This document shows, piece by piece, positions 1 through 39,911 of a stretch of 39,911 bases of DNA (positions within the stretch are counted from its first letter, which is position 1; the number at the start of each line of letters is the position of its first letter). Source of the stretch: a virus; the IMG/VR virus record IMGVR_UViG_3300023082_000005, positions 1 to 39,911 of that record. One strand, given 5' to 3'. A model generated the notes under the pieces. That model saw only the letters and a program-made list of their open reading frames with translations. It was not told the origin of the DNA and made no database searches. Both the position numbers and the translations under genes were made by a program.

Positions 1-127
1 CAAGCATAGCGGCTTCATTGAACCAGACTACAGTCGACATTATCAAACGCGCATTGGGCGAAACGAATACGCTTGAATTGGATCGGTTAGGTAGGGTAAG
101 GTTTTGGAATAAAGAAGTTAAAGAGAA
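1..127. repeat. 127-bp terminal direct repeat, identical to 39785..39911 (circular assembly overlap)
   Basis: Base-by-base comparison of both window ends shows an identical 127-mer. Confidence 0.9.
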
Positions 128-3248: not shown

Positions 3249-3533
3249 TTAAAAGTCACATTCCTCTTTCTCAAGTTCTATAAGGCAGTTTTCAGGTTCA
3301 AATTCTAGTTTTATCAATTCAATGTGACCATTACACATATATGATACGCCACAATAAGGACACTTTACATTATAGGCAAATTCAGCATCCAAGTGCATGT
3401 GAGCGCCACATTCACAATGGATATCCATACATACATCAGTTCCTTTCCACTGAATCCATCCATGTGGCTTACCTGCATAAGTCTCCTGTATATCCCATGC
3501 TTCTTTTTCTGTTTTAGCTACTTTCGTTTCCAT
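3249..3533 (-). CDS. Cysteine/histidine-rich small protein (94 aa), putative zinc-binding, unknown function
   Basis: ORF on the opposite strand to the surrounding structural genes. Contains CMDIHCECGAHMH ... CPYCGVSYMCNGH. I prefer ATG 3533 over the TTG at 3539 given by the ORF track. Confidence 0.6.
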   Translation of the reverse strand: METKVAKTEKEAWDIQETYAGKPHGWIQWKGTDVCMDIHCECGAHMHLDAEFAYNVKCPYCGVSYMCNGHIELIKLEFEPENCLIELEKEECDF

Positions 3534-3536
3534 ACC

Positions 3537-3544
3537 CAAATATA
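3537..3544 (-). promoter_or_regulatory. -7 promoter box TATATTTG (minus strand)
   Basis: Exact TAnnTTTG match 3 nt upstream of ATG 3533. Confidence 0.5.
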
Positions 3545-3580
3545 CGAAGCCTGCCCTTTGGTTTTATGTAACGATTTGAT

Positions 3581-3588
3581 TACATTTG
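3581..3588 (+). promoter_or_regulatory. -7 promoter box TACATTTG with upstream TTTG (3557-3560)
   Basis: Exact TAnnTTTG match. A TTTG lies 20 nt upstream. Part of a 16-mer shared with 8904-8919. Confidence 0.5.
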
Positions 3589-3604
3589 AAATAAACTTAA
3601 CAGT

Positions 3605-3727
3605 ATGTCCTACCAGATCAAATTCATTCGGATATTAACGCCTGACACGGGTACAGATCAATTCCCTGATGGATTGGTAGACTTCAGTTTAACCCTTGAT
3701 TTCACTAAAACAGTAAACTTCACATAA
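3605..3727 (+). CDS. Small hypothetical protein (40 aa, MSYQIKFIRILTPDTG...)
   Basis: ATG ORF whose TAA overlaps the next ATG (TAATG at 3725-3729). Starts 17 nt after the promoter motif. Confidence 0.4.
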   Translation: MSYQIKFIRILTPDTGTDQFPDGLVDFSLTLDFTKTVNFT

Positions 3728-5952
3728 TGGCTATAAGAATCACAGACGGGTCATCCGTTGCTAATTTGGCGAACGTTATAAATGAACATGACGACAGTAT
3801 AGTCAATCACGAAACCAGGATCGATGAACTTGAGCAGGGCGGTGAATCAGGAGGAGTTATTTCGGTTAACGGAGAATCTGGGATTGTTGTGTTAGACAAA
3901 TCTGATATTGGATTGTCATTAGTTAATAACACTTCAGACTTAGATAAGCCAATATCCACGGCACAAGCCACGGTCAATACCGCTAAGGCTGATTTAGTAG
4001 CAGGCAAAGTACCAGCATCGCAATTACCATCATACGTAGACGATGTTTTAGAATTCACCAATCTTGCAGCATTCCCTGCTACAGGAGAGACTGGGAAGAT
4101 CTATATAGCTATAGATACCAATCGTGAATATCGTTGGTCAGGAAGTGTATATGTGCAAATAGTAGCAAGCCCTGGAACGACTGATAATGTGCCGGAAGGC
4201 ACTACCAACAAATATTATACTGAAGACAGGGTTGCAGCAGCACCAAGTGTAACAAACAAAGTGTTGCAGTCTGTATATGATGCTAACAAAACAGCAACCG
4301 ATTTAGCTATTGCCGGTATTCAAACATACTATCAGCCGGAAACAATTTCATACGTAACTCGAGTTAAAACAGCCGGAGGTATTTTGACTGCCACAGAAAT
4401 AGACGCGGTAGATTCATTTATAGTTAAAGGCAGGAATGATGGTTGGTTGACTTTAATGAAGTGGGTATGGTGTCCTATGGGCAATAATCTCGCATCATCG
4501 TTGGTTAACTTAATAGCGGTTTCAGGGGTTAATCAAACATTGATAAACAATGGGTTTGTTGAGGCTGACTATAGTAAGATCCTCGGCTTTGGAACGGGTA
4601 GCGGGGCAAATACGGCTAAATTCTTAGGGACAGGCATAATTCCTATAAATCAAGGGTTGACCAGAAAGAATTTATCATTTGGAGCCTACATACCGGATGA
4701 TAGCTCTAACGGAGGTACAGCAACCCAATTCCTTGGGACAACTCCTACAAGCGGAAATACGCCGTATTATATTACGAGCAACCCCGGATTCACGATTGGA
4801 CAGGACGGTATCACTTTAGGGCAAGGTAAAATAACTGTTTTCGCTCCATCAATAGGTAGCGTAAGTTATGGGCCTGCAAATGAATATTATTCATATACGA
4901 ATAATGTCGCATCGGATCTATCCACGGGATCACCTGCAACTTTAACTGATCTCGATACCGAAGTAACCGTATTTAAAGCGAACAGTACCCGTTTTTCAGC
5001 AGGTAGACTATCTTTTGTATACATGTCGTCTTTCTTGAATCAAAACCAATTAAAGTCACTGCAAGATGCTATACGAGATTTATCAATATCCATAGGTAGG
5101 TATGATGTATCAGGTGGTACAGGACTTTGGTTTGGTGATTCTATTACGTTTGGCTCAGGTGCAACCACAAGAGATACGAGATGGTCAACTATTGTTGCAA
5201 GAAATCTAGGTTTAAAGGAATTTAATACCGGTAAAAGTTCTAGCCAGTTAAGGCAGAATGTTGTATCAGGGGCATACTTGGGTAGAGCAGGAGGATTTCA
5301 GACTTATTCGGAATTTTCAACCGTACAGGCAAGTACGGCATTTATTATGTATGGGACTAACGATTATATAACTGGTGATGTAGCTGTAGGCGGTACACCA
5401 TCCATAATTGCGGATTATAAATCAAAACTGAATACTATTGTAGCGTATTTTAAAAATAGGCGCATTAGGGTTATATTGGTTGGTATACCTTGGGGTACGA
5501 ATACTGATGTAGTAAAAAGGAATTTATATCAAACGGCAATGCAGGAAGTTGCAATTGCGCAGGGGGTAAGGTATGTGGATAACGAAACTGTTTTTACGGA
5601 TACCGGTAACCCATCAGCTTTGACTACTGATGGCGTTCACCCTTTAGATACAGGTCATGCCTTGATTGCTCAAAATGTGATCAACGTTACAAATGGAATT
5701 ATGGTGCGAAAACCAATATTAGATTTCCCATCTATTGCGGCAAATTCGTTTCAGGAATTAACGCTAACATTCCCAACGGTAACTACATCTAATTCTATGG
5801 CAGCACCATCCGGGTATGCGCCTTTGCCGGGAGTGATATACGAAAATTATATTAGTTCAACAGGTGTAGTAACGGTTAGAGCCACGAATATAACAGCAGC
5901 AGCCATAGACCCTGCATCACAAAAAATGACTATTCAGGTTAACTTAGTATAA
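3727..5952 (+). CDS. Fibre-like protein with C-terminal SGNH/GDSL hydrolase (esterase) domain
   Basis: The N-terminus has fibre motifs (VNGESGIVVLDKSDIGLSLVNNTSDLDKPIS; GETGKIYIAIDTNREYRWSGS). The C-terminus has SGNH blocks GLWFGDSITFG, YGTNDY and DGVHPLDTGH. Confidence 0.75.
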   Translation: MAIRITDGSSVANLANVINEHDDSIVNHETRIDELEQGGESGGVISVNGESGIVVLDKSDIGLSLVNNTSDLDKPISTAQATVNTAKADLVAGKVPASQLPSYVDDVLEFTNLAAFPATGETGKIYIAIDTNREYRWSGSVYVQIVASPGTTDNVPEGTTNKYYTEDRVAAAPSVTNKVLQSVYDANKTATDLAIAGIQTYYQPETISYVTRVKTAGGILTATEIDAVDSFIVKGRNDGWLTLMKWVWCPMGNNLASSLVNLIAVSGVNQTLINNGFVEADYSKILGFGTGSGANTAKFLGTGIIPINQGLTRKNLSFGAYIPDDSSNGGTATQFLGTTPTSGNTPYYITSNPGFTIGQDGITLGQGKITVFAPSIGSVSYGPANEYYSYTNNVASDLSTGSPATLTDLDTEVTVFKANSTRFSAGRLSFVYMSSFLNQNQLKSLQDAIRDLSISIGRYDVSGGTGLWFGDSITFGSGATTRDTRWSTIVARNLGLKEFNTGKSSSQLRQNVVSGAYLGRAGGFQTYSEFSTVQASTAFIMYGTNDYITGDVAVGGTPSIIADYKSKLNTIVAYFKNRRIRVILVGIPWGTNTDVVKRNLYQTAMQEVAIAQGVRYVDNETVFTDTGNPSALTTDGVHPLDTGHALIAQNVINVTNGIMVRKPILDFPSIAANSFQELTLTFPTVTTSNSMAAPSGYAPLPGVIYENYISSTGVVTVRATNITAAAIDPASQKMTIQVNLV

Positions 5953-6501: not shown

Positions 6502-6839
6502 AGCTAAGACCAGGAGCGTACAACCAAAAGATCGAGATATACAAGCAGGAGAACTTACCATCTGATGACGGGGGTTCATATCCTGTTGATGTGCTATATT
6601 GGTCAACTAACGCCAATGTCACACCAATACGTGCAGCGAAGTCATTACAGGCGATGCAAGAGGTTTTAAAGCCCGCCATGCTGTTTATCATACGTTACCG
6701 GACAGACAAGCAGGTAAGCCCTGATATGCGTATTCTTTGGCGTGGTGAGTGGTTTAGTTTGCTGACGGTTGAAAGTGACTATGTATATAAAGAAACGATC
6801 AAACTAACCGCAATTGCTGACCAAGTACCGCAACGATGA
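6498..6839 (+). CDS. Head closure / head-tail adaptor protein (SPP1 gp16-like)
   Basis: YNQKIEIYK...DDGGS...NANVTP...IIRYR...ILWRGEWF pattern. ATGA overlap with the previous gene. Confidence 0.7.
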   Translation: MKLRPGAYNQKIEIYKQENLPSDDGGSYPVDVLYWSTNANVTPIRAAKSLQAMQEVLKPAMLFIIRYRTDKQVSPDMRILWRGEWFSLLTVESDYVYKETIKLTAIADQVPQR

Positions 6840-7339
6840 AGAAGTTTAAAAATATGGCTGAACTATCGAGGGCTATTGATAAGCTAGGTAGTGAATTTAA
6901 GGAAGAAGTTCAGGGTATAGTCGGATTTAACTTGACTGAAATGGAGGCTCAAGCCAAACGCGATGCTCCTACCAGTGGCGAGAAGGTAAGAGTAGGCGGC
7001 GGAGGTCGTACAATTGACCAATTAGACCACAAAAACAGATGGAACGGTAACATTGATCAGTTCATCAATAAAGAAATAGCCACTGATGGTTTCTCGGGAA
7101 CTGTTTTAGTTGAAAAAGCAGCAGGAGAAATCGCAGCATACGTAGAATTTTCCACTGGTCAGTCGGCAAAAGTGTATTTGGCGACCGTACCGCCTGAATG
7201 GAGAGCGGCAGCTTTAAAATTTCTGGTTGACGGAAAAGGCAAAATCATAGGAAAACCATATTTATATCCGGCATTCGTACGTTATTCGATTGAATTTCAA
7301 AAAGAACTAAAGGAAGCATTAAACAATTTGTCATTCTAA
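6836..7339 (+). CDS. HK97 gp10-like tail component
   Basis: AKRDAPTSGEK, AAYVEFSTG and KPYLYPAF motifs. ATGA overlap with the previous gene. Confidence 0.65.
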   Translation: MKKFKNMAELSRAIDKLGSEFKEEVQGIVGFNLTEMEAQAKRDAPTSGEKVRVGGGGRTIDQLDHKNRWNGNIDQFINKEIATDGFSGTVLVEKAAGEIAAYVEFSTGQSAKVYLATVPPEWRAAALKFLVDGKGKIIGKPYLYPAFVRYSIEFQKELKEALNNLSF

Positions 7340-7340
7340 C

Positions 7341-7814
7341 ATGAAAATAACCACCTTACCATTCCGAACTGCAGTAGTCACTAACCTAAACTTAGGTACG
7401 GGCGTGGTATACCTAACTAAAAAGATACCTGTTTTTGAGGAAATCGTTACCGTAGATACAACGCGCCCAATCCCAACGATAGGCAAGTACACCGCCTACA
7501 TCCTACTAATCAACCAAACGACAAATAATGACCCGATGAACAAGTGTACGCACAACGAACAGGTGACTATTCAGATTCAATGCGTGACTAAATGGCCATC
7601 TGGAACGGGTAGCTCTGGAGAAGCTGAACGTATCGCTCAATTAGTGTTAGACAGGTTATTTCCGGCAAGCGATATTAAGCCTAATTTAACGCTCTCTAAT
7701 GGACTTGATTTGTGGAAAGGTGAAGTAATGTCAATTCGTAACTTAAATTACGCTGACGACGCGAATCATGTGTGGAATACGATAATTACGCTGTTATGTC
7801 GGGTGATGCAGTAA
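7341..7814 (+). CDS. Putative tail terminator / tail completion protein
   Basis: Assigned by position only, between the gp10-like gene and the tail tube gene. Confidence 0.4.
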   Translation: MKITTLPFRTAVVTNLNLGTGVVYLTKKIPVFEEIVTVDTTRPIPTIGKYTAYILLINQTTNNDPMNKCTHNEQVTIQIQCVTKWPSGTGSSGEAERIAQLVLDRLFPASDIKPNLTLSNGLDLWKGEVMSIRNLNYADDANHVWNTIITLLCRVMQ

Positions 7815-7990
7815 CAAAAGAAGAATGGGAACGCCTTGCTGAAATCAAGTATAAGTACCCACTCCGTCTATGTACGTCTGTTAAAATGAAATATGACTAT
7901 CTACGCGCTAAATGGGTGCGCGAACAGATGGGTATTCCGGTTAATCCTGCTGTTGTTGAGGCGATGGAGCAATTTATTAAAGGTTGCTAA
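7796..7990 (+). CDS. Hypothetical protein (64 aa)
   Basis: ORF 7772..7990 from the track. An internal ATG at 7796 reduces the overlap with the upstream gene. Confidence 0.4.
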   Translation: MSGDAVTKEEWERLAEIKYKYPLRLCTSVKMKYDYLRAKWVREQMGIPVNPAVVEAMEQFIKGC

Positions 7991-8159
7991 ACATTTGAAA
8001 AGCTAATTCTATATTTCTACGCTCCATATCCATTACCATTATTGCGCTGTCCAATATTTTGTCTAGTCTTTCTTTTGAAACGCTGTCCTCAATTTTAGGT
8101 AGGTTAAAAACTTGTCTTTTAAAATTGATATTAGCCAAAGCTAATTCTCTATTATCCAT
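7977..8159 (-). CDS. Hypothetical protein (60 aa), 4th gene of reverse cassette
   Basis: ORF with an 8-nt overlap with the upstream cassette gene. Looks helical by composition. Confidence 0.55.
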   Translation of the reverse strand: MDNRELALANINFKRQVFNLPKIEDSVSKERLDKILDSAIMVMDMERRNIELAFQMFSNL

Positions 8160-8433
8160 TTACCACCCCTCCAATCATTTCTATAATAACGTAGTTTTGC
8201 TCCTTAAATCCTCCGAATGCATCAAAGAATGACTTAGACATATTAGCCTTATCGGTTATAAACCGAAATTCTAAATTACCATCAGGTAGTTTAAATTCGT
8301 CTTGTTCTTGATGAAATTCGTAACCCATCCTTACGATAAGCTTACGATCTTGGATAAATGCTATGTAAGTATTTTTTAGTACAGGTATAGCTAAATACCT
8401 TCTTTCTTTCTGTTTAAATTCTACAATTTTCAT
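8152..8433 (-). CDS. Hypothetical protein (93 aa), 3rd gene of reverse cassette
   Basis: ORF with an ATGA overlap with the upstream gene. Confidence 0.6.
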   Translation of the reverse strand: MKIVEFKQKERRYLAIPVLKNTYIAFIQDRKLIVRMGYEFHQEQDEFKLPDGNLEFRFITDKANMSKSFFDAFGGFKEQNYVIIEMIGGVVNG

Positions 8434-8639
8434 AATATATTTTTAATCATTTCCTTTGCCAATCCTATCAATTCCTCATCAGTCCTAAGTTTAACCCGTT
8501 CGATCTTAGCCTGAATAATAAATGTTCCGAAATCAATGACAAATTCGGCTTCTGTTGGTTGCGTTTGTTTACCTGCGACTTTATTGCTAAAGTCCATTTC
8601 CTTGGTTACTTTCCAGGATTTTACTTGTGGTTGTTGCAT
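8430..8639 (-). CDS. Hypothetical protein (69 aa), 2nd gene of reverse cassette
   Basis: ORF starting 1 nt after the upstream stop. Confidence 0.6.
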   Translation of the reverse strand: MQQPQVKSWKVTKEMDFSNKVAGKQTQPTEAEFVIDFGTFIIQAKIERVKLRTDEELIGLAKEMIKNIL

Positions 8640-8640
8640 G

Positions 8641-8847
8641 TTACTCCTCCGAGTTTAGTTGAATGATAAAGTCATCTAAGGGTATTTGAAATGAAAAAGT
8701 AATCAATGCCATTCCTTTATATCCTATTGGACTTTCTATTTTAAGGTCAATTTGGCCGGGAATAATGTCACCGTTTGGCATGCAGGCTACTAAGAACCTA
8801 TTTCCGTCTTTTTTTACTTTACAAAATTGTGCTGTTTCTTTTTCCAT
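8641..8847 (-). CDS. Hypothetical protein (68 aa), 1st gene of reverse cassette
   Basis: ORF with a promoter motif 4 nt upstream of its ATG. Confidence 0.6.
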   Translation of the reverse strand: MEKETAQFCKVKKDGNRFLVACMPNGDIIPGQIDLKIESPIGYKGMALITFSFQIPLDDFIIQLNSEE

Positions 8848-8851
8848 ACCC

Positions 8852-8859
8852 CAAATGTA
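8852..8859 (-). promoter_or_regulatory. -7 promoter box TACATTTG (minus strand)
   Basis: Exact TAnnTTTG match 4 nt upstream of ATG 8847. Confidence 0.5.
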
Positions 8860-8904
8860 ACTATATGTATTCTAATGCTTATTGTATTATAGTAACCTTT
8901 TCGT

Positions 8905-8912
8905 TACATTTG
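8905..8912 (+). promoter_or_regulatory. -7 promoter box TACATTTG
   Basis: Exact match 17 nt upstream of ATG 8930. Part of the 16-mer TTACATTTGAAATAAA shared with 3580-3595. Confidence 0.5.
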
Positions 8913-8929
8913 AAATAAAAAATCATACG

Positions 8930-9421
8930 ATGGAAATTATCACCTCAAAGGAGTACCTGATGTACATTGACGATGTAACGCCTACAGCTAATACATTAAG
9001 ACCGGCTACACAGGACAATTACAAACTGGTTGCTTGCTGGACGAGTAACGGATTTTCGCAGACAACTGCCGGAAATGAATTTACAAACAAATGTTCGGGC
9101 GGTAATGCAGAGTCAGCGCCAGGAACTAAATCATCTAGCATGACGGGTTCGGGGCAGGCATTTGGATTAACGGAAGATGAAGAAGAAGCACAAGCAAACT
9201 TCGAAACTATCCTTAACCTGTCTAACGCTGATGATGGTAATGTGCATTTCGTGAAGATTGTTAGACCTGCTGTTGACGGCTTACCCGCTGTATGGCGTGA
9301 AGCTAAAGCCTGGATTTCGGACTACTCTGAAACGGGTGACGATATTGCGCCTTTGACATTTGACGCTACATGGACTGTAACAGGCCGCGTATTTACTTCT
9401 CCATTAGTTGTAACGCCATAG
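8930..9421 (+). CDS. Major tail (tube) protein
   Basis: 163 aa, directly upstream of the chaperone pair and tape measure gene. ATG 8930 is preferred over the TTG at 8882, which would lie upstream of the promoter motif. Confidence 0.65.
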   Translation: MEIITSKEYLMYIDDVTPTANTLRPATQDNYKLVACWTSNGFSQTTAGNEFTNKCSGGNAESAPGTKSSSMTGSGQAFGLTEDEEEAQANFETILNLSNADDGNVHFVKIVRPAVDGLPAVWREAKAWISDYSETGDDIAPLTFDATWTVTGRVFTSPLVVTP

Positions 9422-9422
9422 T

Positions 9423-9782
9423 ATGAACGGAATAGCAGAGGTAACGATTAACGGCACATCATACGCGCTTAAGTTCGGTATGCAAGCTGTTGCAGCACTA
9501 GAGGACAGAACGACTAAAGGAGGCTTGCTCATCACAAGCACTGAAGGTTATTCAAAGTTCTTAAGCGACCTGATGTATTGCGGGATGTATGGTAATTCAA
9601 TCCGAAAGGACATTGCTATTGTGCCGTATGAGGAAGTGATGGATCTATTTGAAGAACTATCGATGCAACCGGATGCTGCAGAACAATATGCCAACATGAC
9701 TAAAGCTTACTTTGCATCTATCGAAGATTTGAGAGCGAAAAAAGAAGCCATTGCCGAGACTGATAAAAAAAAAGCGAAGTAG
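9423..9782 (+). CDS. Tail assembly chaperone (G-like, short product)
   Basis: Positioned between the tail tube and tape measure genes. Ends just after an A9 slippery run. Confidence 0.7.
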   Translation: MNGIAEVTINGTSYALKFGMQAVAALEDRTTKGGLLITSTEGYSKFLSDLMYCGMYGNSIRKDIAIVPYEEVMDLFEELSMQPDAAEQYANMTKAYFASIEDLRAKKEAIAETDKKKAK

Positions 9783-15257: not shown

Positions 15258-15788
15258 ATGATCAATGGCCGTTTTTATGGGATATTTATAGATGATGTAA
15301 CACCTAGATCAGCGGGCAAGGGTGCAAATTACCGGATGGTGGCTTGTGCTACTGAAAACGGATTCAGTGCCTCTGCTGATGGAGTAAGTTACAACAATAA
15401 GTCTGATGACGGCTTTGATCAATCCTACACAGGCAGAATTAGCACTTCATTTTCTCTGTCAGGTCAAGCTGTAGGGCTTAGAACGTCAGAAAAACTAACA
15501 CAGGTTAACTTTAACGAGTTGCTTACACTTATGCTTAATAAACGGGAGTTCTGGATTAAAATGTATGACCCTGTTGACGAAACAATCATAAGAGAAACAT
15601 GGTGCCGGATTGGTAGTTACGACGAATCAGCACCATTAGAGGGTGTTTACACTTTTAACGCCTCATTTGTGGGTGTAGGAAAGCCGGTAAGCGTTGGTGA
15701 TTACATTATCAAGCGGTTGAGAGCTACAGATAATAGCGGGGAAGAATTAAGACAAGATGGTAAAAATAACATTTTAGAAGTAAGATAA
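15258..15788 (+). CDS. Major-tail-protein paralogue (176 aa)
   Basis: Collinear similarity to 8930..9421: IDDVTP, NY(K/R)(L/M)VAC, NGFS, SGQA(F/V)GL, NF(E/N)..L.L and a similar C-terminal block. Confidence 0.6.
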   Translation: MINGRFYGIFIDDVTPRSAGKGANYRMVACATENGFSASADGVSYNNKSDDGFDQSYTGRISTSFSLSGQAVGLRTSEKLTQVNFNELLTLMLNKREFWIKMYDPVDETIIRETWCRIGSYDESAPLEGVYTFNASFVGVGKPVSVGDYIIKRLRATDNSGEELRQDGKNNILEVR

Positions 15789-17644
15789 TGACAGAATTTG
15801 AAACAGTAACGATAGCGGATTTAGACGACCTGGTTTTAACAATCAATACCTTTTTAGAGGGGTGCAACCAAGACGGCGTAAGCGGTAAATTTACAGCCTC
15901 ACAATTGGCAACGCTTTTGGCGCCGTATGTGGTGGCTGTTGGCGGTAGTAGTTTTGTGCCTACGACAGGTAGCGCTATGCCGACCGCCGGAGCAGGTAAG
16001 TTCACTTTTTTAACCCCTAAAACATATACCCAAACTACCGGGGGTAGCTTAACGCCAACAGGTATTTTAACTTTGGCGGTAAGCAGCGCAACAACATGGA
16101 CATTATCTAGCGTAATCATCGATTCTATCACTGGCGCGCCTAAGCAAGTTCAAAACTTATATTACCCGTTGTCTAGCGGTGTTCAAAAAAATACTTCATT
16201 AGGCGGGGACGGGGCTATAGTAACAGGGTTGCCTGCGGTTGGATATGCGGTTTCTGCACCTATATTAGTGACGCCAGGGGCGCAATATACATTATCTGGG
16301 CCCACAGATACCTACGGAAGGGCTATACAATTTCAAAACACAGCAGGGGTTCAGGTTGGATCACTAGTTGCGACATCGTATCCTTACACTTTTACGGTTC
16401 CCGCTAATTCTGACAGGCTTATTTTTACATGCAAATTATCCATAGAGGGTCCGGGATTACCGGATATGTTTTTAATGGCGGTTGCAACAGACCCAATACG
16501 TAATACTGAAACCGTAGGTGGGGCAAATTATTTATACGGAGGTACGAACCGTTTGTTAACCGCTGATAATTTAAAAAAATCAGCCACGATAAGAGGGGCA
16601 AGTATTACAAATAGTATTGATCTGGAAGCAAGACTTGGTAACGGATTAAATCTATACGCGCCTTTATACACAATAGCCGATTACTCATTAGGTCTGGACG
16701 GTACAACGCAACCGCAAACAGGGGCTGCGATAACGGGGTCAATAAAAGTTGACCCGCTTACGAATTACGTGTTAAGTGGTATATCCGGGGAAGTAGCTGG
16801 TGCTCAAAGGGCTATCCGTTTCGAGAATACAGCAGGAGCAAACATAGGGGTAGCTATTGCTACACAATATCCTTTCTATTTCACAACTCCTGCTAATACA
16901 TTTAGTCTTGTTTTTACATCCAGGCTTGCAACTCAACCAGTGCAGCCTAATCTTAAACTGGCGAAATATACGGCTAACCCTTTAGGATTATTGCCTTATT
17001 CTGGCCGAATAGTATGCGTTTACGGGGACAGTATATCGAATGATTATCCAATTTATAACTCCCTACTTAAATACAAATTAAATGCTTCATCAGTATTAAG
17101 TGCCGGACAAAGCGGAGCATCTTTCGCTGGAGCTTTGCAAACAACAGCCTTGCTTAATGCTGCGGGATCGTTAGGGGCAAATGACTCTCTTTTTATAATG
17201 GGTAGCGTTAACGACTTTCGAAGCAGCGAACAGCCGGGGACGATATCTAGCGCGTCTGGTAGCGCGACAATGGTTGGCGGTATGAAAAAGATAATTGAAT
17301 TTTTTCAATCTAGAAATTCCAAAAGCGCAGTAGTAGGCTGGACGTCAACAACTTTTGGTGACGTGAAATTATTGGGCTATCCGGATTCGTTTGACAGTTC
17401 ACAAGTTAACTTGTTAGGGAAATATCTGCCTGAATACGTAGATTTGCAGAGGCAAGTGTTTCAAATGTATGGTGTCCATGTTGTAGACATGACCTCTATG
17501 TTTGGGGCAAAGCCTAAAATGGAGAGTATTGCCGCCCAAAGAAGATTTACTAGAGACGGTGTACATCCAAGTGATGATATAGGTTACCCTAAGTTTACAG
17601 ATATTTTAGCAAGGGCTATAAACAATATACCAGTATTCCCTTAA
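15788..17644 (+). CDS. Fibre / receptor-binding protein with tandem internal repeat and C-terminal SGNH/GDSL hydrolase domain
   Basis: SGNH blocks VCVYGDSISNDY, MGSVNDF and RDGVHPSDDIGY. Two roughly 100-aa repeats (about 16150-16450 and 16645-16938). Confidence 0.7.
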   Translation: MTEFETVTIADLDDLVLTINTFLEGCNQDGVSGKFTASQLATLLAPYVVAVGGSSFVPTTGSAMPTAGAGKFTFLTPKTYTQTTGGSLTPTGILTLAVSSATTWTLSSVIIDSITGAPKQVQNLYYPLSSGVQKNTSLGGDGAIVTGLPAVGYAVSAPILVTPGAQYTLSGPTDTYGRAIQFQNTAGVQVGSLVATSYPYTFTVPANSDRLIFTCKLSIEGPGLPDMFLMAVATDPIRNTETVGGANYLYGGTNRLLTADNLKKSATIRGASITNSIDLEARLGNGLNLYAPLYTIADYSLGLDGTTQPQTGAAITGSIKVDPLTNYVLSGISGEVAGAQRAIRFENTAGANIGVAIATQYPFYFTTPANTFSLVFTSRLATQPVQPNLKLAKYTANPLGLLPYSGRIVCVYGDSISNDYPIYNSLLKYKLNASSVLSAGQSGASFAGALQTTALLNAAGSLGANDSLFIMGSVNDFRSSEQPGTISSASGSATMVGGMKKIIEFFQSRNSKSAVVGWTSTTFGDVKLLGYPDSFDSSQVNLLGKYLPEYVDLQRQVFQMYGVHVVDMTSMFGAKPKMESIAAQRRFTRDGVHPSDDIGYPKFTDILARAINNIPVFP

Positions 17645-20841: not shown

Positions 20842-21504
20842 ATGAAAAAAGAACAAAATCATACCAGTTTTTTAGTTAAAACCGGAAGGATATTAAAGTT
20901 AGATATTAATTATGCAAAGCCGTTTGTTGAGTGTAGGTGCATCTGTGGCAGGATAAGATTTTATAATCAGCGAAGTATTGATTACTTTAATAGAATAAGC
21001 TGCGGGTGTAAGAAAAAAGGGCTTAATTCTGCGGTAGCAACTCATCTAGGAACCGGGACTCGGCTTTTTAGTATATTTAACAATATGAGACAAAGATGTT
21101 ATAATAAAAATTCTTATGGATATAAATGGTATGGGGAGAGGGGTATAACTGTATGTGATGAGTGGAATTATAATTTTTACAACTTCAAGCTATGGGCATT
21201 AAATAACGGTTATTCCGAAGATCTGACATTAGACAGGATAAATGCAAATGACAACTATGAACCAGAGAATTGCAAGTGGTCAACAGCAAAGGAACAAAGT
21301 AATAATAGGCGCAATAATAGGATTATTGAGGTTGATGGAGTAAAAAAAACACTAACCCAATGGTCAAACGTTTTAAAAAAACACCCATCATCGCTTTCCT
21401 CTACTATAGACAGGACAAGTAGGTATGGACTAACGCCACAAGATGTTATTAAAAATTTACAAAGTAACCCTTCTTTTAGGTTTTATAATAAAAATATATC
21501 ATGA
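20842..21504 (+). CDS. Free-standing homing-endonuclease-like DNA-binding protein (degenerate HNH_3-like domain, N-terminal Cys cluster)
   Basis: MRQRCYNKNSYGYKWYGERGITVCDEW ... LTLDRINANDNYEPENCKWSTAKEQSNN, where Arg replaces the first His of the HNH motif. CRCICG...CGC zinc-like cluster. Confidence 0.5.
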   Translation: MKKEQNHTSFLVKTGRILKLDINYAKPFVECRCICGRIRFYNQRSIDYFNRISCGCKKKGLNSAVATHLGTGTRLFSIFNNMRQRCYNKNSYGYKWYGERGITVCDEWNYNFYNFKLWALNNGYSEDLTLDRINANDNYEPENCKWSTAKEQSNNRRNNRIIEVDGVKKTLTQWSNVLKKHPSSLSSTIDRTSRYGLTPQDVIKNLQSNPSFRFYNKNIS

Positions 21505-25563: not shown

Positions 25564-26046
25564 ATGAAAAGCATAGAAGAAATAAAAGATGAATACGCAC
25601 AAGAGTCAGGATTTAATGACTTTTATGACTACATTAAAAATAGCACAATAGGAGAAATAGACCATCACTGTTCTCACGTGGCTATGGTATTTGCTAATCA
25701 ATACAAATCTGATGTTTCAAATGCTATTTCAGATGATGAGATTGAAAAAGAAGCCGATAAAAGATATACTAATCAAACTGATGTAGGTCAATTCAGAAAT
25801 TACGCTTTTCAAGATGGGGCAGAATGGTACCGAAAGGAGTTAAAATATATAAATAATTCTACTAAAAAAGAGGAAAATAATAATTGGAAAAAACAAATGA
25901 GAGAATTAGAAATCGGACAAGCATTCGAAACGGATGCCGCCAACTACGGATCAATTAGGGCTATGAGGTCGAAACTTAGATTAGATGGATTTGACTTTCA
26001 GTTCAAACTTGGAAAAGGCACACTAACAGTAAGGAGGATAGCGTAA
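25564..26046 (+). CDS. Hypothetical protein (160 aa)
   Basis: ORF track. Confidence 0.55.
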   Translation: MKSIEEIKDEYAQESGFNDFYDYIKNSTIGEIDHHCSHVAMVFANQYKSDVSNAISDDEIEKEADKRYTNQTDVGQFRNYAFQDGAEWYRKELKYINNSTKKEENNNWKKQMRELEIGQAFETDAANYGSIRAMRSKLRLDGFDFQFKLGKGTLTVRRIA

Positions 26047-30533: not shown

Positions 30534-31154
30534 ATGAATAAGCAGGAATCACAGTACTACGCGTACTTAAAAAACCTAGGATACAGCCCTGTATTCAATC
30601 AAGAAAAATCATCTTTCCTATTGAAAGATCAAAAAATTTACCTTAAATGCTGCTCATTTCCGGCCTCGGAAGAACTTAATAAGTTAGCATTACAACACTC
30701 AAAAAAATACACTATAATACTACTTGACGGTAATCTTACTTTTAAGGATTACGCGGTTTATGCAGAGGGCGAAGCTTGCCATTCTGGATTTCTTACCCAT
30801 ATAGGTAGTAAGTATGGGAGCATTTACTATGGAGAATTCGATACTGAGTACTTCCAAAAAGAAACATTTGCTATTGTAAAGGCTATCGATCCCGCTATAT
30901 TAAAATGCAGGTGTGGCAAAGAAGATCAATACATTGTTACAAAGAACATTCATTATAAAGCTACATGCAAATGCGGAAACTTTATAAAGAACCTGTCTAC
31001 TAATAAACCTATAACTATTCATTTTGGTAAATATGCCGGTAGGGAATTAGAATCGATGACCTCAAAAGAAGAAGTTCAATATCTGCAATGGGCTATTAAT
31101 TCTGGTGTATTTTCAAAGAAAGTTGCTCAGGCTGCTATAGAATTTCTTAAATAA
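30534..31154 (+). CDS. Hypothetical protein (206 aa) with Cys4 ribbon and DUF3820-like C-terminus
   Basis: CRCG...CKCG pairs. HFGKYAGRELESM...YLQWAI resembles the FGKYKG...YL.W motif. Confidence 0.45.
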   Translation: MNKQESQYYAYLKNLGYSPVFNQEKSSFLLKDQKIYLKCCSFPASEELNKLALQHSKKYTIILLDGNLTFKDYAVYAEGEACHSGFLTHIGSKYGSIYYGEFDTEYFQKETFAIVKAIDPAILKCRCGKEDQYIVTKNIHYKATCKCGNFIKNLSTNKPITIHFGKYAGRELESMTSKEEVQYLQWAINSGVFSKKVAQAAIEFLK

Positions 31155-33433
31155 TGAAGACCGACTTAGGAAAATGTAAAAAGCTATTAGATAGCGGTTT
31201 CTCATTAGTATGCGTTGGAGAGAATAAAGTTCCAAATTTCGCATGGAAAGACAAGCAGACAAAACCATATACAAAAGATGCCTTCGAAAAGCATTATAAC
31301 TATACTGGAGGCATCTTTAAAAAAGATGGTAACGAGATCGTTCCTACAAATGGTATAGGCTTAATTACAGGTTATGACAACATAGAGGTTATAGATGTAG
31401 ATCTTAAAGTCTTTAAATCTCTTAAAGAACAACAGGATTTCTGGAATGAATATATAGGCTTTTTAAAAGACAATATTGATGATTTTGACAATAAGTTTGT
31501 AATATATAAAACCGTTAATAACGGGTATCATATTATTTATAGATGCAATGTTGTTGGTGGCAATGAAAAGATAGCTGTTCTCAAAGGACAAAAAGAGGCC
31601 GTCATAGAAACTAGAGGGATTGGAGGATACGTTTTTATTTATGACAATCAGATATCTAAAAAATCATATTACGAAGTACAGGAGATATCCGTCGCCGAAA
31701 GAGCTTGTTTATTTGATTGTAGTAAGTACTTTAATTATGTTGAAGAAAAAGATGAATTAATACCTGATAAGATTAAAAAAGAATCTGAAGGTGTTGATGT
31801 ACATGTTTGGGATGATTACAATAGTAAAACGACTATGCTTGATGTGGTTGGAAGTGATTTTAAAGTCATCAAGCGTTTATCCAATAAATACGTTATAAAA
31901 CGAGAGGGCGCTACATCGGCGCATAGCGGGTATATCTTCAAGGATAGCGGGTGCATGTATTTATTCAGTACAGGCACGATATTCCCGCATGAAAAGCTAA
32001 TAAGTCCTTTTACTGCTTACACAATTAAACACCATGGTGGTGATTTTTCAAAAGCAGCTAAAGACTTATATCAAAAAGGTTTTGGTTCTAGAGTTGTTAA
32101 AAAAATAGAGGCAATAGAATTACCTGCTCCAGTTAAAAAAGAAGATTTAGTTTTCCCAATTGATATATTCCCCTTGGAAGTTCAAAACTATATGGTTAAA
32201 TGCCATGAAACACTAGATAGTTCAATGGATTATATGGGATGTAGTATGCTATGGTTAATCTCTGTAATCGTCGGAAACTCTGTAAGAGTTGAAGTAAAGC
32301 CTGGGTGGGAAGAACCTGGCACAGCCTGGATAAGTGTTTTGGGTAAAGCCGGTATAGGTAAGACTCCGTCTATACACAATATTGTCAACCCGATAATGAG
32401 AGTTAACAACCGGGAGGTTAAAAATTACATTAAAAGTAGGGAAAAATATGATACCTATATGGCATTAGACAAAAAGGAGAGAAATGATACCGAGGAAATA
32501 AAAAAGCCAGTAAAAACTCAATTTATTGCTATGGACATTACATTAGAGGCTTTAGTTGATCTGCACGAGGAAAATAAGAATGCTGTAGGGGTTTTTAAAG
32601 ACGAGTTAGCCGGATGGTTTAAAGATATGAATAAGTACCGCACAGGGTCTGATTTAGAGTTTTGGCTATCTTCATGGTCGGGTAAATCTGTTTTCTTAAA
32701 TCGAAAGACAGCAAAGTCATCATTTGTTGAGTCTCCATTGATCCCTGTTTTAGGCGGCATACAGCCGAGAATTATGGATCAGTTTTACACCGAAGAAAAT
32801 AAAGATAATGGTTTTATTGATCGTATGCTATTGTGCTTACCAGATCTTATTGTTGATGATTATAACGAAGAATCATTAGATTATGCTACTATTACCTGGT
32901 ATAGTGATTATATAGTTGCTTTTTATGACAATATAAAAAGACATATTGTTAATTATAATATTGACAATGAGATAGAGCCTATAATTGCAAAATTTAGTCC
33001 TGATGCAAAAAAAGAATGGAAGCGTATGTTTAACGACATAACAGCGATGCAGAATAGTGATATGGAAAATGAATATATGAAGTCTATGCTTCCTAAACAG
33101 AAGTCCTACATCCCTCGTTTTGCTTTATTGATAAACACTTTACAATCATTCAACAAAAGCGGTTCTTTGTCAGATTTTAATACTATTAGTTATGAGTCTA
33201 TTTTAGGCGCAGAGCGACTTTCAAAATATTTCATTGCTATGGCCAGGAAAATCAAAATTAATAGTTTAGAAGTAAATTTAATGAAGAAATATATCAAGGC
33301 TAACGATGCTAAAAACAATGAAGAAAAATTCATTGAAATGTATAAAATCAACCCGAATTTGAATAAATCTGAGGCTGCGGAACTTTTGGGTGTTTCCAGA
33401 AACATGATTTATAAATACATGAAAAAAGTGTAA
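31154..33433 (+). CDS. Primase-polymerase / DUF3987-type helicase fusion with C-terminal HTH
   Basis: N-terminal prim-pol-like region (GLITGYDNIEVIDVDLK), Walker A VLGKAGIGKTPS in the central domain, and a C-terminal LNKSEAAELLGVSRNMIYKYM helix-turn-helix. Confidence 0.75.
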   Translation: MKTDLGKCKKLLDSGFSLVCVGENKVPNFAWKDKQTKPYTKDAFEKHYNYTGGIFKKDGNEIVPTNGIGLITGYDNIEVIDVDLKVFKSLKEQQDFWNEYIGFLKDNIDDFDNKFVIYKTVNNGYHIIYRCNVVGGNEKIAVLKGQKEAVIETRGIGGYVFIYDNQISKKSYYEVQEISVAERACLFDCSKYFNYVEEKDELIPDKIKKESEGVDVHVWDDYNSKTTMLDVVGSDFKVIKRLSNKYVIKREGATSAHSGYIFKDSGCMYLFSTGTIFPHEKLISPFTAYTIKHHGGDFSKAAKDLYQKGFGSRVVKKIEAIELPAPVKKEDLVFPIDIFPLEVQNYMVKCHETLDSSMDYMGCSMLWLISVIVGNSVRVEVKPGWEEPGTAWISVLGKAGIGKTPSIHNIVNPIMRVNNREVKNYIKSREKYDTYMALDKKERNDTEEIKKPVKTQFIAMDITLEALVDLHEENKNAVGVFKDELAGWFKDMNKYRTGSDLEFWLSSWSGKSVFLNRKTAKSSFVESPLIPVLGGIQPRIMDQFYTEENKDNGFIDRMLLCLPDLIVDDYNEESLDYATITWYSDYIVAFYDNIKRHIVNYNIDNEIEPIIAKFSPDAKKEWKRMFNDITAMQNSDMENEYMKSMLPKQKSYIPRFALLINTLQSFNKSGSLSDFNTISYESILGAERLSKYFIAMARKIKINSLEVNLMKKYIKANDAKNNEEKFIEMYKINPNLNKSEAAELLGVSRNMIYKYMKKV

Positions 33434-33700
33434 ACCAATGTAAACCTAGGTTTACACTTTTAAATGATGTAACTAATTGATATATTAGTAGTTACAATAA
33501 AAAGTGTAAACCGGTTTACAGGTTGACACTAAAAAAAATAAAAAAAATAATTTCAAAAAATATAATTATAAAAAAAATAGTGTAAACCGGTTTACACTTT
33601 TAAAAAAAATCAATGTTTAAATGTGTTTAAATGCACTTTTTATTGAAATATTGGTTTACACTTTGGTTTACACTTTGGTTTACACTTTGGTTTACACATA
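33428..33700. other. Putative origin of replication (iterons, palindromes, AT-rich unwinding region)
   Basis: About 12 copies of the GGTTTACA(C)/(G)TGTAAACC half-site. The AT-rich block 33530-33579 contains no G and a single C. Lies directly downstream of the primase-helicase gene. Confidence 0.65.
33653..33697 (+). repeat. Four tandem 12-bp iterons (GGTTTACACTTT)
   Basis: GGTTTACAC at 33653, 33665, 33677 and 33689, an exact 12-bp period. Confidence 0.9.
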
Positions 33701-39432: not shown

Positions 39433-39911
39433 ATGCCACTGCCTAACCTCAAACAAAGCCAACTCGCATTTGCGCGCTTCCACAAGAACGCGGAGAAACA
39501 GTTATTGCCGTTATTTCGTAAAGCATTAAACAAGTCTATAGCAGGTGTTATAAATTGGGTTGAAATACATGGTACTGAGAATGTTCCGGTAGAGACGCTA
39601 ATCGATACGCGTGTATGGCAGCAGGTATATCCTAAAGCCTTTCAGATGATTGGCCTGAGAATGGCTAGGTTAGAGTACTACAATCAGCGTAAACAAGATG
39701 AAAATGCTAATAAAGCTAACGTGATTGATTTTTTGCGTGATGTTTGGAGCGGTAAGCTAAGGCAAGCGGCTATTGAGTACATGACAAGCATAGCGGCTTC
39801 ATTGAACCAGACTACAGTCGACATTATCAAACGCGCATTGGGCGAAACGAATACGCTTGAATTGGATCGGTTAGGTAGGGTAAGGTTTTGGAATAAAGAA
39901 GTTAAAGAGAA
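39433..39911 (+). CDS. Mu F / SPP1 gp7-like head morphogenesis protein, N-terminal part (continues at 1..485)
   Basis: ATG at 39433. The frame is open to the window end and in phase with 18..485 across the 127-bp overlap. Confidence 0.7.
   Translation, partial: MPLPNLKQSQLAFARFHKNAEKQLLPLFRKALNKSIAGVINWVEIHGTENVPVETLIDTRVWQQVYPKAFQMIGLRMARLEYYNQRKQDENANKANVIDFLRDVWSGKLRQAAIEYMTSIAASLNQTTVDIIKRALGETNTLELDRLGRVRFWNKEVKE
39785..39911. repeat. 127-bp terminal direct repeat, identical to 1..127
   Basis: Base-by-base identity with the window start. Confidence 0.9.

What the first reader, a model, noticed from the sequence alone, without database searches (positions are those of the whole stretch)
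7977..8859. Reverse-strand four-gene cassette of unknown small proteins embedded in the tail module
Four short ORFs (68, 69, 93 and 60 aa) run on the minus strand between the tail-completion genes and the major tail protein gene. They interrupt an otherwise collinear plus-strand morphogenesis operon. They are tightly coupled (a 1-nt gap, an ATGA overlap and an 8-nt overlap). They have their own exact TAnnTTTG promoter box 4 nt from the first ATG. The last gene overlaps the convergent + gene by 14 nt. I cannot find any catalytic, HTH, TM or zinc motif in the four proteins. An independently transcribed cassette inside late genes is the classic position for phage genes that act on the host or on competing elements, such as anti-defence, exclusion or toxin-antitoxin-like genes. 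The cassette behaves as one unit, so it may encode a multi-component system rather than unrelated morons.
Basis: partly seen in the sequence, partly recalled or inferred. Interest (0 to 1): 0.72.

Follow-up and report, generated by a model that had tools for sequence, protein, structure and literature searches.

The report
Variable reverse-strand accessory gene slot
The four small reverse-strand genes are real and have their own promoter, but related phages show they are independent, swappable passengers in a fast-changing accessory-gene slot of a flavobacterial-type phage tail module, not one four-part system.

Summary
Observation confirmed. Four minus-strand ORFs (68, 69, 93 and 60 aa) sit between the tail-terminator and major-tail-protein genes, with the stated gaps and overlaps and an exact TACATTTG box 4 nt before the first ATG. 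Comparison with relatives supports the promoter. All 8 complete versions of the slot have a TAnnTTTG box, and 5 of 8 place it 3-4 nt before an ATG. By published Flavobacterium promoter geometry, that spacing gives a leaderless mRNA.

Across 10 slot variants in related uncultured phages, no locus carries more than one of the four families. Only ORF2 recurs (5 of 8 complete slots, dN/dS 0.07-0.30), and it is lost in L028. ORF1 belongs to a ~15-member "MPNGD" family scattered through other phages' structural modules. ORF3 is a chimeric orphan and ORF4 has no relative. Of 60 slot ORFs, 39 are singletons.

The slot is AT-rich, always on the reverse strand, 0.6-2.9 kb long, and sometimes next to homing endonucleases. 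No Pfam, PHROG, NCBIfam, PADLOC or Foldseek match gives a function.

Best reading: a promoter-anchored, moron-like accessory island. Function is unknown. Interest is moderate to low.

The parts
8852..8859 (-). Bacteroidota sigma-A type -7 box TACATTTG, 4 nt upstream of the ORF1 ATG. The predicted transcription start is the A of the ATG, giving a leaderless mRNA.
   Evidence: An equivalent box precedes the first reverse gene in L001, L002, L010, L017, L029 and L031. The -12..-5 box position and 4-5 nt to the start site come from PMC6847099 and PMC9723704.
8840..8888 (.). Conserved promoter segment, 98% identical to L001 although different genes lie downstream of it.
   Evidence: blastn.
8892..8919 (+). 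Divergent plus-strand promoter for the major tail protein gene (box TACATTTG at 8905-8912, 17 nt before the ATG at 8930). An 86% identical copy lies at 3568-3595.
   Evidence: repeat family D11.
8641..8847 (-). ORF1, 68 aa. The bare N-terminal all-beta 'MPNGD(I/L)IP' domain of a ~15-member family with no known function. Unique to the window within this phage lineage's slot.
   Evidence: AF2 pLDDT 84.3. No PDB fold match. Homologues sit in other slots of other phages.
8430..8639 (-). ORF2, 69 aa, predicted beta-beta-beta-alpha protein. The longest-resident gene of the slot: present in 5 of 8 complete variants and under purifying selection.
   Evidence: dN/dS 0.07-0.30. Identity tracks the tail genes. 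AF2 pLDDT 84.4. No fold match. Absent from L028, L029 and L031.
8152..8433 (-). ORF3, 93 aa, a chimeric orphan. Residues ~4-51 match the N-terminus of the 143-aa protein P0011 from an unrelated contig. Its last ~9 codons equal the 3' end of the ORF2 homologues of L001 and L002.
   Evidence: junction alignment.
7977..8159 (-). ORF4, 60 aa, an orphan with no homologue. Only its first ~6 codons are shared with the 135/142-aa last genes of L001 and L002. Its 3' end overlaps the convergent + ORF by 14 nt.
8143..8181 (.). 39-bp conserved gene-boundary junction (end of ORF3, start of ORF4), 87% identical to L001. A likely recombination joint.
7796..7990 (+). Small conserved plus-strand ORF (start at GTG 7772 or ATG 7796), convergent with the cassette. 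Found in all 9 relatives surveyed (motif YP.P...C..K.K...LR..W).
7341..7814 (+). Tail terminator gene, the left anchor of the slot.
   Evidence: Weak PHROG matches (phrog_176, phrog_123; best E=0.012) plus position. Used as the synteny anchor.
8930..9421 (+). Major tail protein gene, the right anchor of the slot.
   Evidence: phrog_1407, E=1.7e-14.

Best explanation
The region is a promoter-anchored, reverse-strand accessory-gene slot. It is moron-like and sits between the tail-terminator/small-ORF genes and the major tail protein gene in a lineage of uncultured, apparently virulent siphoviruses of Flavobacteriia-type hosts.

A conserved host sigma-A type -7 box placed 4 nt before the first ATG should start transcription at the A of the ATG. 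The result would be a leaderless polycistronic mRNA running antisense to the tail operon. No terminator is detectable, and the last gene always overlaps the 3' end of the convergent small + ORF.

The four genes are independent passengers of different ages:
- ORF2 is an old resident that has diverged in step with the tail genes.
- An ORF3-like gene was already present in the ancestor of the window, L001 and L002, and those two relatives later deleted it between 9-nt direct repeats.
- ORF1 and the body of ORF4 are unique acquisitions.

Gene content turns over by recombination at short conserved boundary sequences: the promoter plus ATG, and a 39-bp junction. Nearby homing endonucleases in some relatives probably help.

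Shown: the anatomy, conservation of the promoter position, the lack of co-conservation, purifying selection on ORF2, and the deletion joint.

Inferred: the leaderless start, expression independent of the late operon (probably early) and shut-off by convergent late transcription, and that the products are small soluble cytoplasmic proteins acting on the host or on competitors rather than virion parts.
For: Anatomy.

Promoter:
- Box positions and spacing enrichment.
- A box upstream of the first reverse gene in the window, L001 and L002 (4 nt from the ATG), L017 (3 nt), L010 (20 nt), and L029 and L031 (4 nt).
- Published -12..-5 geometry with 4-5 nt to the start site.

Mosaicism:
- Only 7814-7968, 8143-8181, 8446-8633 and 8840-8888 are shared with L001.
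- The five first-found variants differ in slot content, and five more differ again.
- No locus has more than one of the four families.
- 39 of 60 slot ORFs are singletons, and all are on the reverse strand.

ORF2: dN/dS 0.07-0.30; identity tracks the terminator and major tail protein.

Deletion joint at GAAATGATT.

Composition: 31-36% GC against 42-45% in the flanks, similar to the early region. One L001 slot ORF shares a module with window early gene 25564-26046.

Homing endonucleases in the slots of L001 and L028.

No terminator-like site on the minus strand.

No structural-protein profile hit.

No integrase or repressor found, and the lineage is never seen in 185,579 species genomes.
Against: - No expression data exist. 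The timing, the leaderless start and the antisense shut-off are all inferred.
- No protein has an assigned function, so 'acts on the host or competitors' rests on position and analogy only.
- ORF2's co-divergence with the tail genes would also fit a tail-linked role.
- ORF4, and some singleton ORFs in relatives, may not be expressed as proteins.
- The sample is small: 10 slot variants, 2 of them truncated, all from metagenomes.
- The -7 box alone is not enriched in the genome.
Confidence: 0.62

Rival explanations
1. The four genes form one co-functioning multi-component system (anti-defence, exclusion or toxin-antitoxin-like).
For: Tight translational coupling and a single promoter. The position is typical of accessory genes.
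Against: No co-occurrence anywhere. ORF1, ORF3 and ORF4 homologues are absent from all 9 related slots, and ORF1, ORF2 and ORF3 homologues elsewhere never share a locus. Relatives with 80-95% identical major tail proteins have swapped partners. No PADLOC hit passes a meaningful threshold.
Confidence: 0.04
2. ORF2, alone or with its neighbours, is a tail-module component such as an assembly chaperone or a minor virion protein that happens to be encoded on the opposite strand.
For: ORF2 is syntenic, and its identity tracks the tail genes: 90%, 75% and 46% against terminator 97%, 90% and 46% and major tail protein 95%, 80% and 36%. It is under purifying selection.
Against: L028 has a major tail protein 97% identical to L010's but no ORF2, and L029 and L031 also lack it. 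The gene is on the reverse strand behind a host-type promoter. Its GC is low. No PHROG structural family or viral fold matches it.
Confidence: 0.1
3. The conserved feature is the antisense transcription itself. The divergent promoter pair and the reverse unit act as a transcriptional insulator or timer between the neck genes and the separately promoted major-tail-protein operon. The ORFs are incidental cargo.
For: Position, orientation and promoter are conserved in 10 of 10 variants while content is not. The same design recurs at 3249-3595, with a duplicated plus-strand promoter. No terminators are found, and the convergent overlap is always present.
Against: ORF2 and the ORF1 family are under protein-level constraint, so at least some of the cargo is selected as protein. 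There is no direct evidence of interference. This reading is compatible with the best explanation rather than exclusive of it.
Confidence: 0.12
4. Some of the ORFs, especially ORF4 and perhaps ORF3, are not functional genes but decaying remnants of recombination.
For: ORF4 has no homologue among 1.84 billion representative proteins. It shares only ~6 codons with the 135/142-aa genes. ORF3 is a patchwork.
Against: Both score best in their own frame. Both are open and tightly coupled to their neighbours. The ORF3 N-terminal domain is 53% identical to P0011 over 45 aa (E=2e-5 across the whole library).
Confidence: 0.1

Closest known systems
Phage morons (Juhala/Hendrix; prototype HK97 gene 15 in the tail operon; reviewed in PMC3594210)
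   Same: Extra genes lie between conserved morphogenesis genes. Their GC differs from the surrounding genes. They have their own promoter. Relatives carry different or no versions of the individual genes.
   Different: No terminator is detectable. The phage has no integrase or repressor and is never seen as a prophage, so expression from a repressed prophage does not apply. This is a multi-gene, reverse-strand unit, and every relative has the slot occupied: no relative shows an empty site.
Hyperplastic regions and mobile promoter cassettes (PeSLs) of T4-type phages
   Same: In virulent phages, orphan-rich variable regions are bounded by short conserved regulatory or boundary sequences at which genes are shuffled.
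   Different: The phage family, host phylum and promoter type are all different. Here a single conserved promoter anchors the whole slot. No stem-loop element was found, and the boundary sequences are not repeated elsewhere in the genome.
acr-aca anti-CRISPR loci inside morphogenesis operons of Mu-like Pseudomonas phages (from my own knowledge)
   Same: A strong dedicated promoter, variable small orphan genes near the promoter, one more conserved gene, and a location inside the structural module.
   Different: ORF2 has no HTH or RHH and is not at a fixed end of the unit. No Acr or Aca homology was found. Three related slots lack ORF2. No functional evidence exists.
Leaderless sigma-A transcripts of Flavobacterium (PMC6847099, PMC9723704)
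   Same: A TAHHTTTG box at -12..-5 with 4-5 nt to the start site. Here the ATG sits exactly at the predicted +1.
   Different: Leaderless mRNAs are rare in the hosts (about 5.5%). This phage has six such starts, including all three reverse-strand units in or beside the structural region.

Membership tests
Moron (independent transcription unit added between conserved phage genes) | Present between two genes that are adjacent, or differently occupied, in related phages | tested here: met
   ORF1, ORF3 and ORF4 are absent from all 9 related slots. However, the slot itself is never empty.
Moron (independent transcription unit added between conserved phage genes) | Base composition differs from the surrounding genes | tested here: met
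   Cassette 31-36% GC, flanking tail genes 42-45%.
Moron (independent transcription unit added between conserved phage genes) | Own promoter | tested here: met
   TACATTTG 4 nt before the ATG, conserved in relatives, and the spacing is enriched. This is sequence evidence only. No transcript data exist.
Moron (independent transcription unit added between conserved phage genes) | Own terminator | tested here: not met
   No terminator-like site on the minus strand of 7300-9500. ORF4 overlaps the convergent gene.
Moron (independent transcription unit added between conserved phage genes) | Expressed from the repressed prophage to benefit the lysogen | tested here: not met
   No integrase or repressor among the ORFs scanned. 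No relative of ORF2 or the terminator in 185,579 species genomes. Expression itself cannot be tested here.
Multi-gene defence / anti-defence / toxin-antitoxin system | Component genes co-occur and move as a block across genomes | tested here: not met
   No locus holds more than one of the four families.
Multi-gene defence / anti-defence / toxin-antitoxin system | Homology to a known defence or toxin-antitoxin component | tested here: not met
   PADLOC, Pfam and NCBIfam give no hit at or above the curated cut-offs. The best is PDC-M63B at E=0.0076, 13.6 bits.
acr-aca type anti-defence locus | Conserved HTH/RHH regulator (Aca) at the promoter-distal end, plus known Acr homology or activity | tested here: not met
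   ORF2 is predicted beta3-alpha with no HTH or RHH. Only L017 has a weak RHH_5 hit (E=5e-4, below cut-off). Inhibitor activity cannot be tested here.
Virion / tail assembly proteins | Profile or fold similarity to structural families | tested here: not met
   No PHROG structural family for ORF1-4. Foldseek gives no match at E<=0.001: ORF2 against BFVD and PDB, ORF1 against PDB only.

The most novel reading that the evidence does not exclude
The conserved reverse-strand, leaderless unit is a dedicated early-expressed 'cargo bay' for counter-defence or host-takeover proteins in virulent Bacteroidota phages, comparable to acr-aca loci. ORF2 would be a new non-HTH anchor or regulator. ORF1 (the MPNGD domain), ORF3 and ORF4 would be new inhibitor families with folds unlike anything solved.
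Probability: 0.13. Interest if true: 0.7.

Novelty: new variant of a known kind. Interest (0 to 1): 0.35.

Why it matters
Phages of Bacteroidota are poorly characterised, and almost nothing is known about their accessory or counter-defence genes.

This slot gives a simple, recognisable landmark for harvesting candidate accessory genes from metagenomic phages of this lineage: tail terminator, a small conserved ORF, reverse-strand genes, then a divergent TACATTTG promoter pair ahead of the major tail protein gene.

It also shows repeated use of exact leaderless promoter geometry by a phage whose hosts rarely use leaderless mRNAs.

ORF1 and ORF2 are small families with confident predicted folds and no structural relatives, so they are reasonable targets for functional screens.

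The finding as originally framed, a four-component system, does not hold. None of the functions is known, so the practical value is as a lead rather than a discovery.

Tried and rejected
1. Nucleotide similarity to deposited phages (megablast and blastn): no match. tblastn of ORF1, ORF2 and the terminator against 50,697 phage records: no match. Only the large terminase gave taxonomic context.
2. Profile searches of the four proteins in Pfam, PHROGs, NCBIfam and PADLOC: nothing significant.
3. PDB sequence-profile searches: only summed scores against designed repeat proteins, with no single stretch passing. Rejected.
4. Foldseek: no match at E<=0.001. COMM-domain chains (also beta3-alpha) appeared for ORF2 with probability ~0.2 and TM ~0.36. 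Rejected as unsupported.
5. L019 from the metagenome scan: a high-GC bacterial contig with no ORF at the match. Spurious.
6. P0010 (838-aa repeat protein): a multi-stretch, low-identity match spanning the artificial ORF1/ORF2 junction of my concatenated query. Ignored.
7. Invertible segment or transposon: no flanking inverted repeats and no transposase (ORF lists). Rejected.
8. Structured RNA or tRNA in the window: none.
9. Prophage origin: no relatives in the genome collection.
10. 'ORF2 is universal in the slot': I held this after but dropped it after searches showed L028, L029 and L031 lack it.
11. ORF1 linked to glycosyltransferases: true for the long-form branch, but the window has no glycosyltransferase among the ORFs scanned, so this does not transfer to ORF1.
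12. Weak Imm33, SUKH_6 and RHH_5 hits in relatives' slot genes: below the curated cut-offs. Kept only as leads.

Full report
OBSERVATION. The four minus-strand ORFs exist exactly as described: ORF1 8641-8847 (68 aa), ORF2 8430-8639 (69 aa), ORF3 8152-8433 (93 aa) and ORF4 7977-8159 (60 aa). The junctions are a 1-nt gap, an ATGA overlap and an 8-nt overlap. ORF4 overlaps the convergent + ORF (ending at 7990) by 14 nt. TACATTTG lies at 8852-8859 (-), 4 nt before the ORF1 ATG.

PHROG profiles support the context: Neck1/tail completion 6836-7339 (E=4.7e-8), tail terminator 7341-7814 (weak matches only, best E=0.012, so assigned partly by position), major tail protein 8930-9421 (phrog_1407, E=1.7e-14), then chaperone and tape measure. 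The four proteins have no Pfam, PHROG, NCBIfam or PADLOC match, no TM segment and no Cys/His cluster. Each is best in its own frame by codon usage.

The window is a complete genome of about 39.8 kb, since positions 1-127 equal 39785-39911. Its large terminase is closest, at about 43% identity, to phages of Nonlabens and Riemerella. No integrase or repressor was found among the sizeable ORFs.

PROMOTER. The bare motif TAnnTTTG is not enriched in the genome (51 found, 52 expected), so the match alone proves nothing. Two other lines of evidence make it credible.

First, the box recurs at the same place in relatives whatever gene follows it. In the window, L001 and L002 it lies 4 nt before the ATG, in L017 3 nt, in L010 20 nt, and in L029 and L031 4 nt. 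The 49 bp at 8840-8888 are 98% identical to L001 although the downstream genes differ.

Second, boxes 3-4 nt before an ATG that opens an ORF of at least 40 aa occur six times in the window, against 0.85 expected from the other spacings (Poisson P=2.5e-4).

Published mapping in Flavobacterium johnsoniae and F. psychrophilum places the element at -12 to -5, with 4-5 nt to the start site. It also reports that leaderless mRNAs are rare in these hosts, about 5.5% (PMC6847099, PMC9723704). A 4-nt gap therefore puts +1 on the A of the ATG, and the cassette mRNA should be leaderless. This is an inference; no transcript data exist.

A second box at 8905-8912 (+), 17 nt before the major tail protein ATG, makes the 82-bp intergenic region a divergent promoter pair. 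Its plus-strand half (8892-8919) has an 86% identical copy at 3568-3595, next to another reverse unit (3249-3533) that also starts 3 nt after a box. So the morphogenesis region is not otherwise collinear.

No terminator-like site follows ORF4.

COMPARATIVE GENOMICS. No deposited phage resembles the region. Metagenomic relatives were found through the major tail protein, ORF2 and a terminator alignment. Between the terminator/small + ORF and the major tail protein gene, the slots contain:
- Window: ORF1-ORF2-ORF3-ORF4.
- L001/L003: 81 aa, ORF2 homologue, 135 aa, plus a GIY-YIG endonuclease and two further reverse ORFs.
- L002: ~137-144 aa (start codon uncertain), ORF2 homologue, 142 aa.
- L010: ORF2 homologue and a 107-aa membrane protein.
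- L017: five reverse genes, with the ORF2 homologue fourth.
- L028: a GIY-YIG endonuclease and three small hydrophobic or Cys-rich ORFs, with no ORF2, although its major tail protein is 97% identical to L010's.
- L029: three reverse ORFs, no ORF2.
- L031: a 2.9-kb slot with about 14 reverse ORFs, no ORF2.
- L030 and L032: truncated.

Profile and all-against-all searches of 60 cassette-strand slot ORFs give five ORF2-family members, three members of the 135/142/139-aa family, a five-member family of tiny hydrophobic peptides, three pairs, and 39 singletons. ORF1, ORF3 and ORF4 are unique to the window. Every slot is on the reverse strand.

A blastp of the four proteins against all ORFs of ten loci found no locus with more than one of the four families.

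THE FOUR GENES.

ORF2 is a real, constrained gene. Pairwise dN/dS is 0.07-0.30. Its identity to the homologues tracks the tail genes: ORF2 is 90%, 75% and 46% identical against L003, L002 and L010, the terminator 97%, 90% and 46%, and the major tail protein 95%, 80% and 36%. That fits long vertical residence. The AF2 model (pLDDT 84.4) is beta-beta-beta-alpha, with no significant match in PDB or BFVD. It is dispensable for the tail module, at least in L028, L029 and L031.

ORF1 is the bare N-terminal domain of a ~15-member family with an invariant MPNG(D)xIP core. The AF2 model has pLDDT 84.3 and is all-beta, with no PDB match. Homologues sit in other slots of other siphovirus-like contigs, on either strand and with unrelated neighbours. 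A long-form branch lies directly upstream of glycosyltransferase genes after the MuF gene.

ORF3 matched only itself in the indexed search of 5.8 billion clusters. In the exhaustive search of 1.84 billion representatives, only its N-terminal ~45 residues match anything: the 143-aa protein P0011, at 53% identity (E=2e-5), on a small unrelated contig.

ORF4 has no homologue at all.

RECOMBINATION JOINTS. The alignment shows that the 3' end of the ORF2 homologues in L001 and L002 equals the left part of the window's ORF2 end joined to the window's ORF3 end, at a shared 9-nt repeat, GAAATGATT. The outgroup L010 keeps the window-type ORF2 ending (KTVL* against KNIL*). So an ORF3-like gene was ancestral to the window, L001 and L002, and was deleted in L001/L002 between direct repeats.

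The 39-bp junction at 8143-8181 (end of ORF3, first ~6 codons of ORF4) is shared with the start of the unrelated 135/142-aa genes. The promoter plus ATG is shared with unrelated first genes. Exchange therefore happens at short conserved gene boundaries.

Homing endonucleases in two variants are a plausible stimulus, by inference.

The slot's GC (about 34%) resembles the early half of the genome rather than the structural genes. One L001 slot ORF shares an 80%-identical, 46-aa module with window early gene 25564-26046. This suggests one pool of small accessory genes.

INTERPRETATION. The best-supported model (confidence about 0.6) is a promoter-anchored, moron-like accessory island that is transcribed, probably leaderless, against the tail operon. 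Its cargo is independently acquired small soluble proteins. Their function is unknown. By position and analogy it is most likely host- or competitor-directed, and probably early, with shut-off by convergent late transcription. All of that last part is inferred.

The rivals are:
- The four-component system, contradicted by the comparative data (confidence 0.04).
- A tail-assembly or virion role for ORF2 (0.10).
- Antisense transcription itself as the selected feature (0.12, and compatible with the best model).
- Non-functional remnants, especially ORF4 (0.10).

COMPARISON WITH WHAT IS KNOWN. Against the definition of a moron (PMC3594210), the island meets three criteria: extra DNA relative to related phages, deviant GC, and its own promoter. 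It fails two: its own terminator, and expression from a prophage. I therefore describe it as working like a moron or hyperplastic region rather than as a member of that class. It resembles acr-aca loci in layout only; no defining feature of those loci was met.

VERDICT. This is a new variant of a known kind of feature. Interest is about 0.35: the slot is a tidy landmark for mining accessory genes in Bacteroidota phages, and the repeated leaderless promoter use is a mild surprise, but no function or system has been demonstrated.

Noticed in passing
window 3249-3595: A second reverse-strand unit lies in the head region. It is a 94-aa Cys/His-rich (zinc-ribbon-like) ORF starting 3 nt after a TATATTTG box (3537-3544, minus strand). 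It is divergent from a plus-strand promoter at 3568-3595, which is an 86% copy of the major-tail-protein promoter at 8892-8919.
   Followed up: partly
window ATGs at 3533(-), 8847(-), 18426(-), 15258(+), 20842(+), 34800(+): There are six gene starts with a TAnnTTTG box exactly 3-4 nt upstream, which is the predicted geometry for a leaderless mRNA. The spacing is enriched about 7-fold over other spacings, although leaderless mRNAs are rare (~5.5%) in Flavobacterium hosts.
   Followed up: partly
window 1-127 and 39785-39911: A perfect 127-nt terminal direct repeat. The window is a circularly assembled complete genome of about 39,784 bp.
   Followed up: no
window 33424-33690: A cluster of GGTTTACACTTT direct repeats and perfect 21-nt inverted repeats lies immediately after the primase-helicase gene (31154-33433). 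It is probably the replication origin.
   Followed up: no
window 3727-5952 and 15788-17644: Two large proteins carry SGNH/GDSL esterase domains. The first sits, unusually, between the capsid and head-tail connector genes. In relative L003 the gene at that position instead gives a weak Beta_helix match.
   Followed up: no
L014 6001-7601, L015 501-2757, L020 5001-7236, L021 65-2300, L005 4097-7580: Long-form ORF1-family ('MPNGD') proteins are repeatedly encoded directly upstream of glycosyltransferase genes, overlapping them by 4 nt, inside phage head modules. Some long forms (P0017, P0018, P0021) end in a hydrophobic C-terminal anchor.
   Followed up: partly
L001 3937-4881; L028 2394-2867; L017 3348-4025; window 20842-21504: Homing-type endonucleases are scattered in and near the variable slots. 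GIY-YIG genes sit next to the cassette promoter in L001 and L028. An HNH-like gene lies between Neck1 and the head-closure gene in L017. The window has an HNH gene with a leaderless-type promoter.
   Followed up: partly
L010 6204-6317, L017 2003-2110, L028 2241-2372, L030 3935-4045, L032 4884-5003: A family of tiny (35-43 aa) hydrophobic peptides recurs in the slots of the L010-like clade. In L010 and L017 it lies directly after the ORF2 homologue.
   Followed up: no
L001 2300-2590 and window 25564-26046: The C-terminal 46 aa of a reverse ORF in L001's tail-module slot are 80% identical to the N-terminus of an early-region gene of the window. This shows module shuffling between the tail slot and the early region.
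   Followed up: partly
window 7772-7990: The small plus-strand ORF convergent with the cassette is conserved in all 9 relatives surveyed (motif YP.P...C..K.K...LR..W). It has no known function or family, and it is the real constant of this region.
   Followed up: partly
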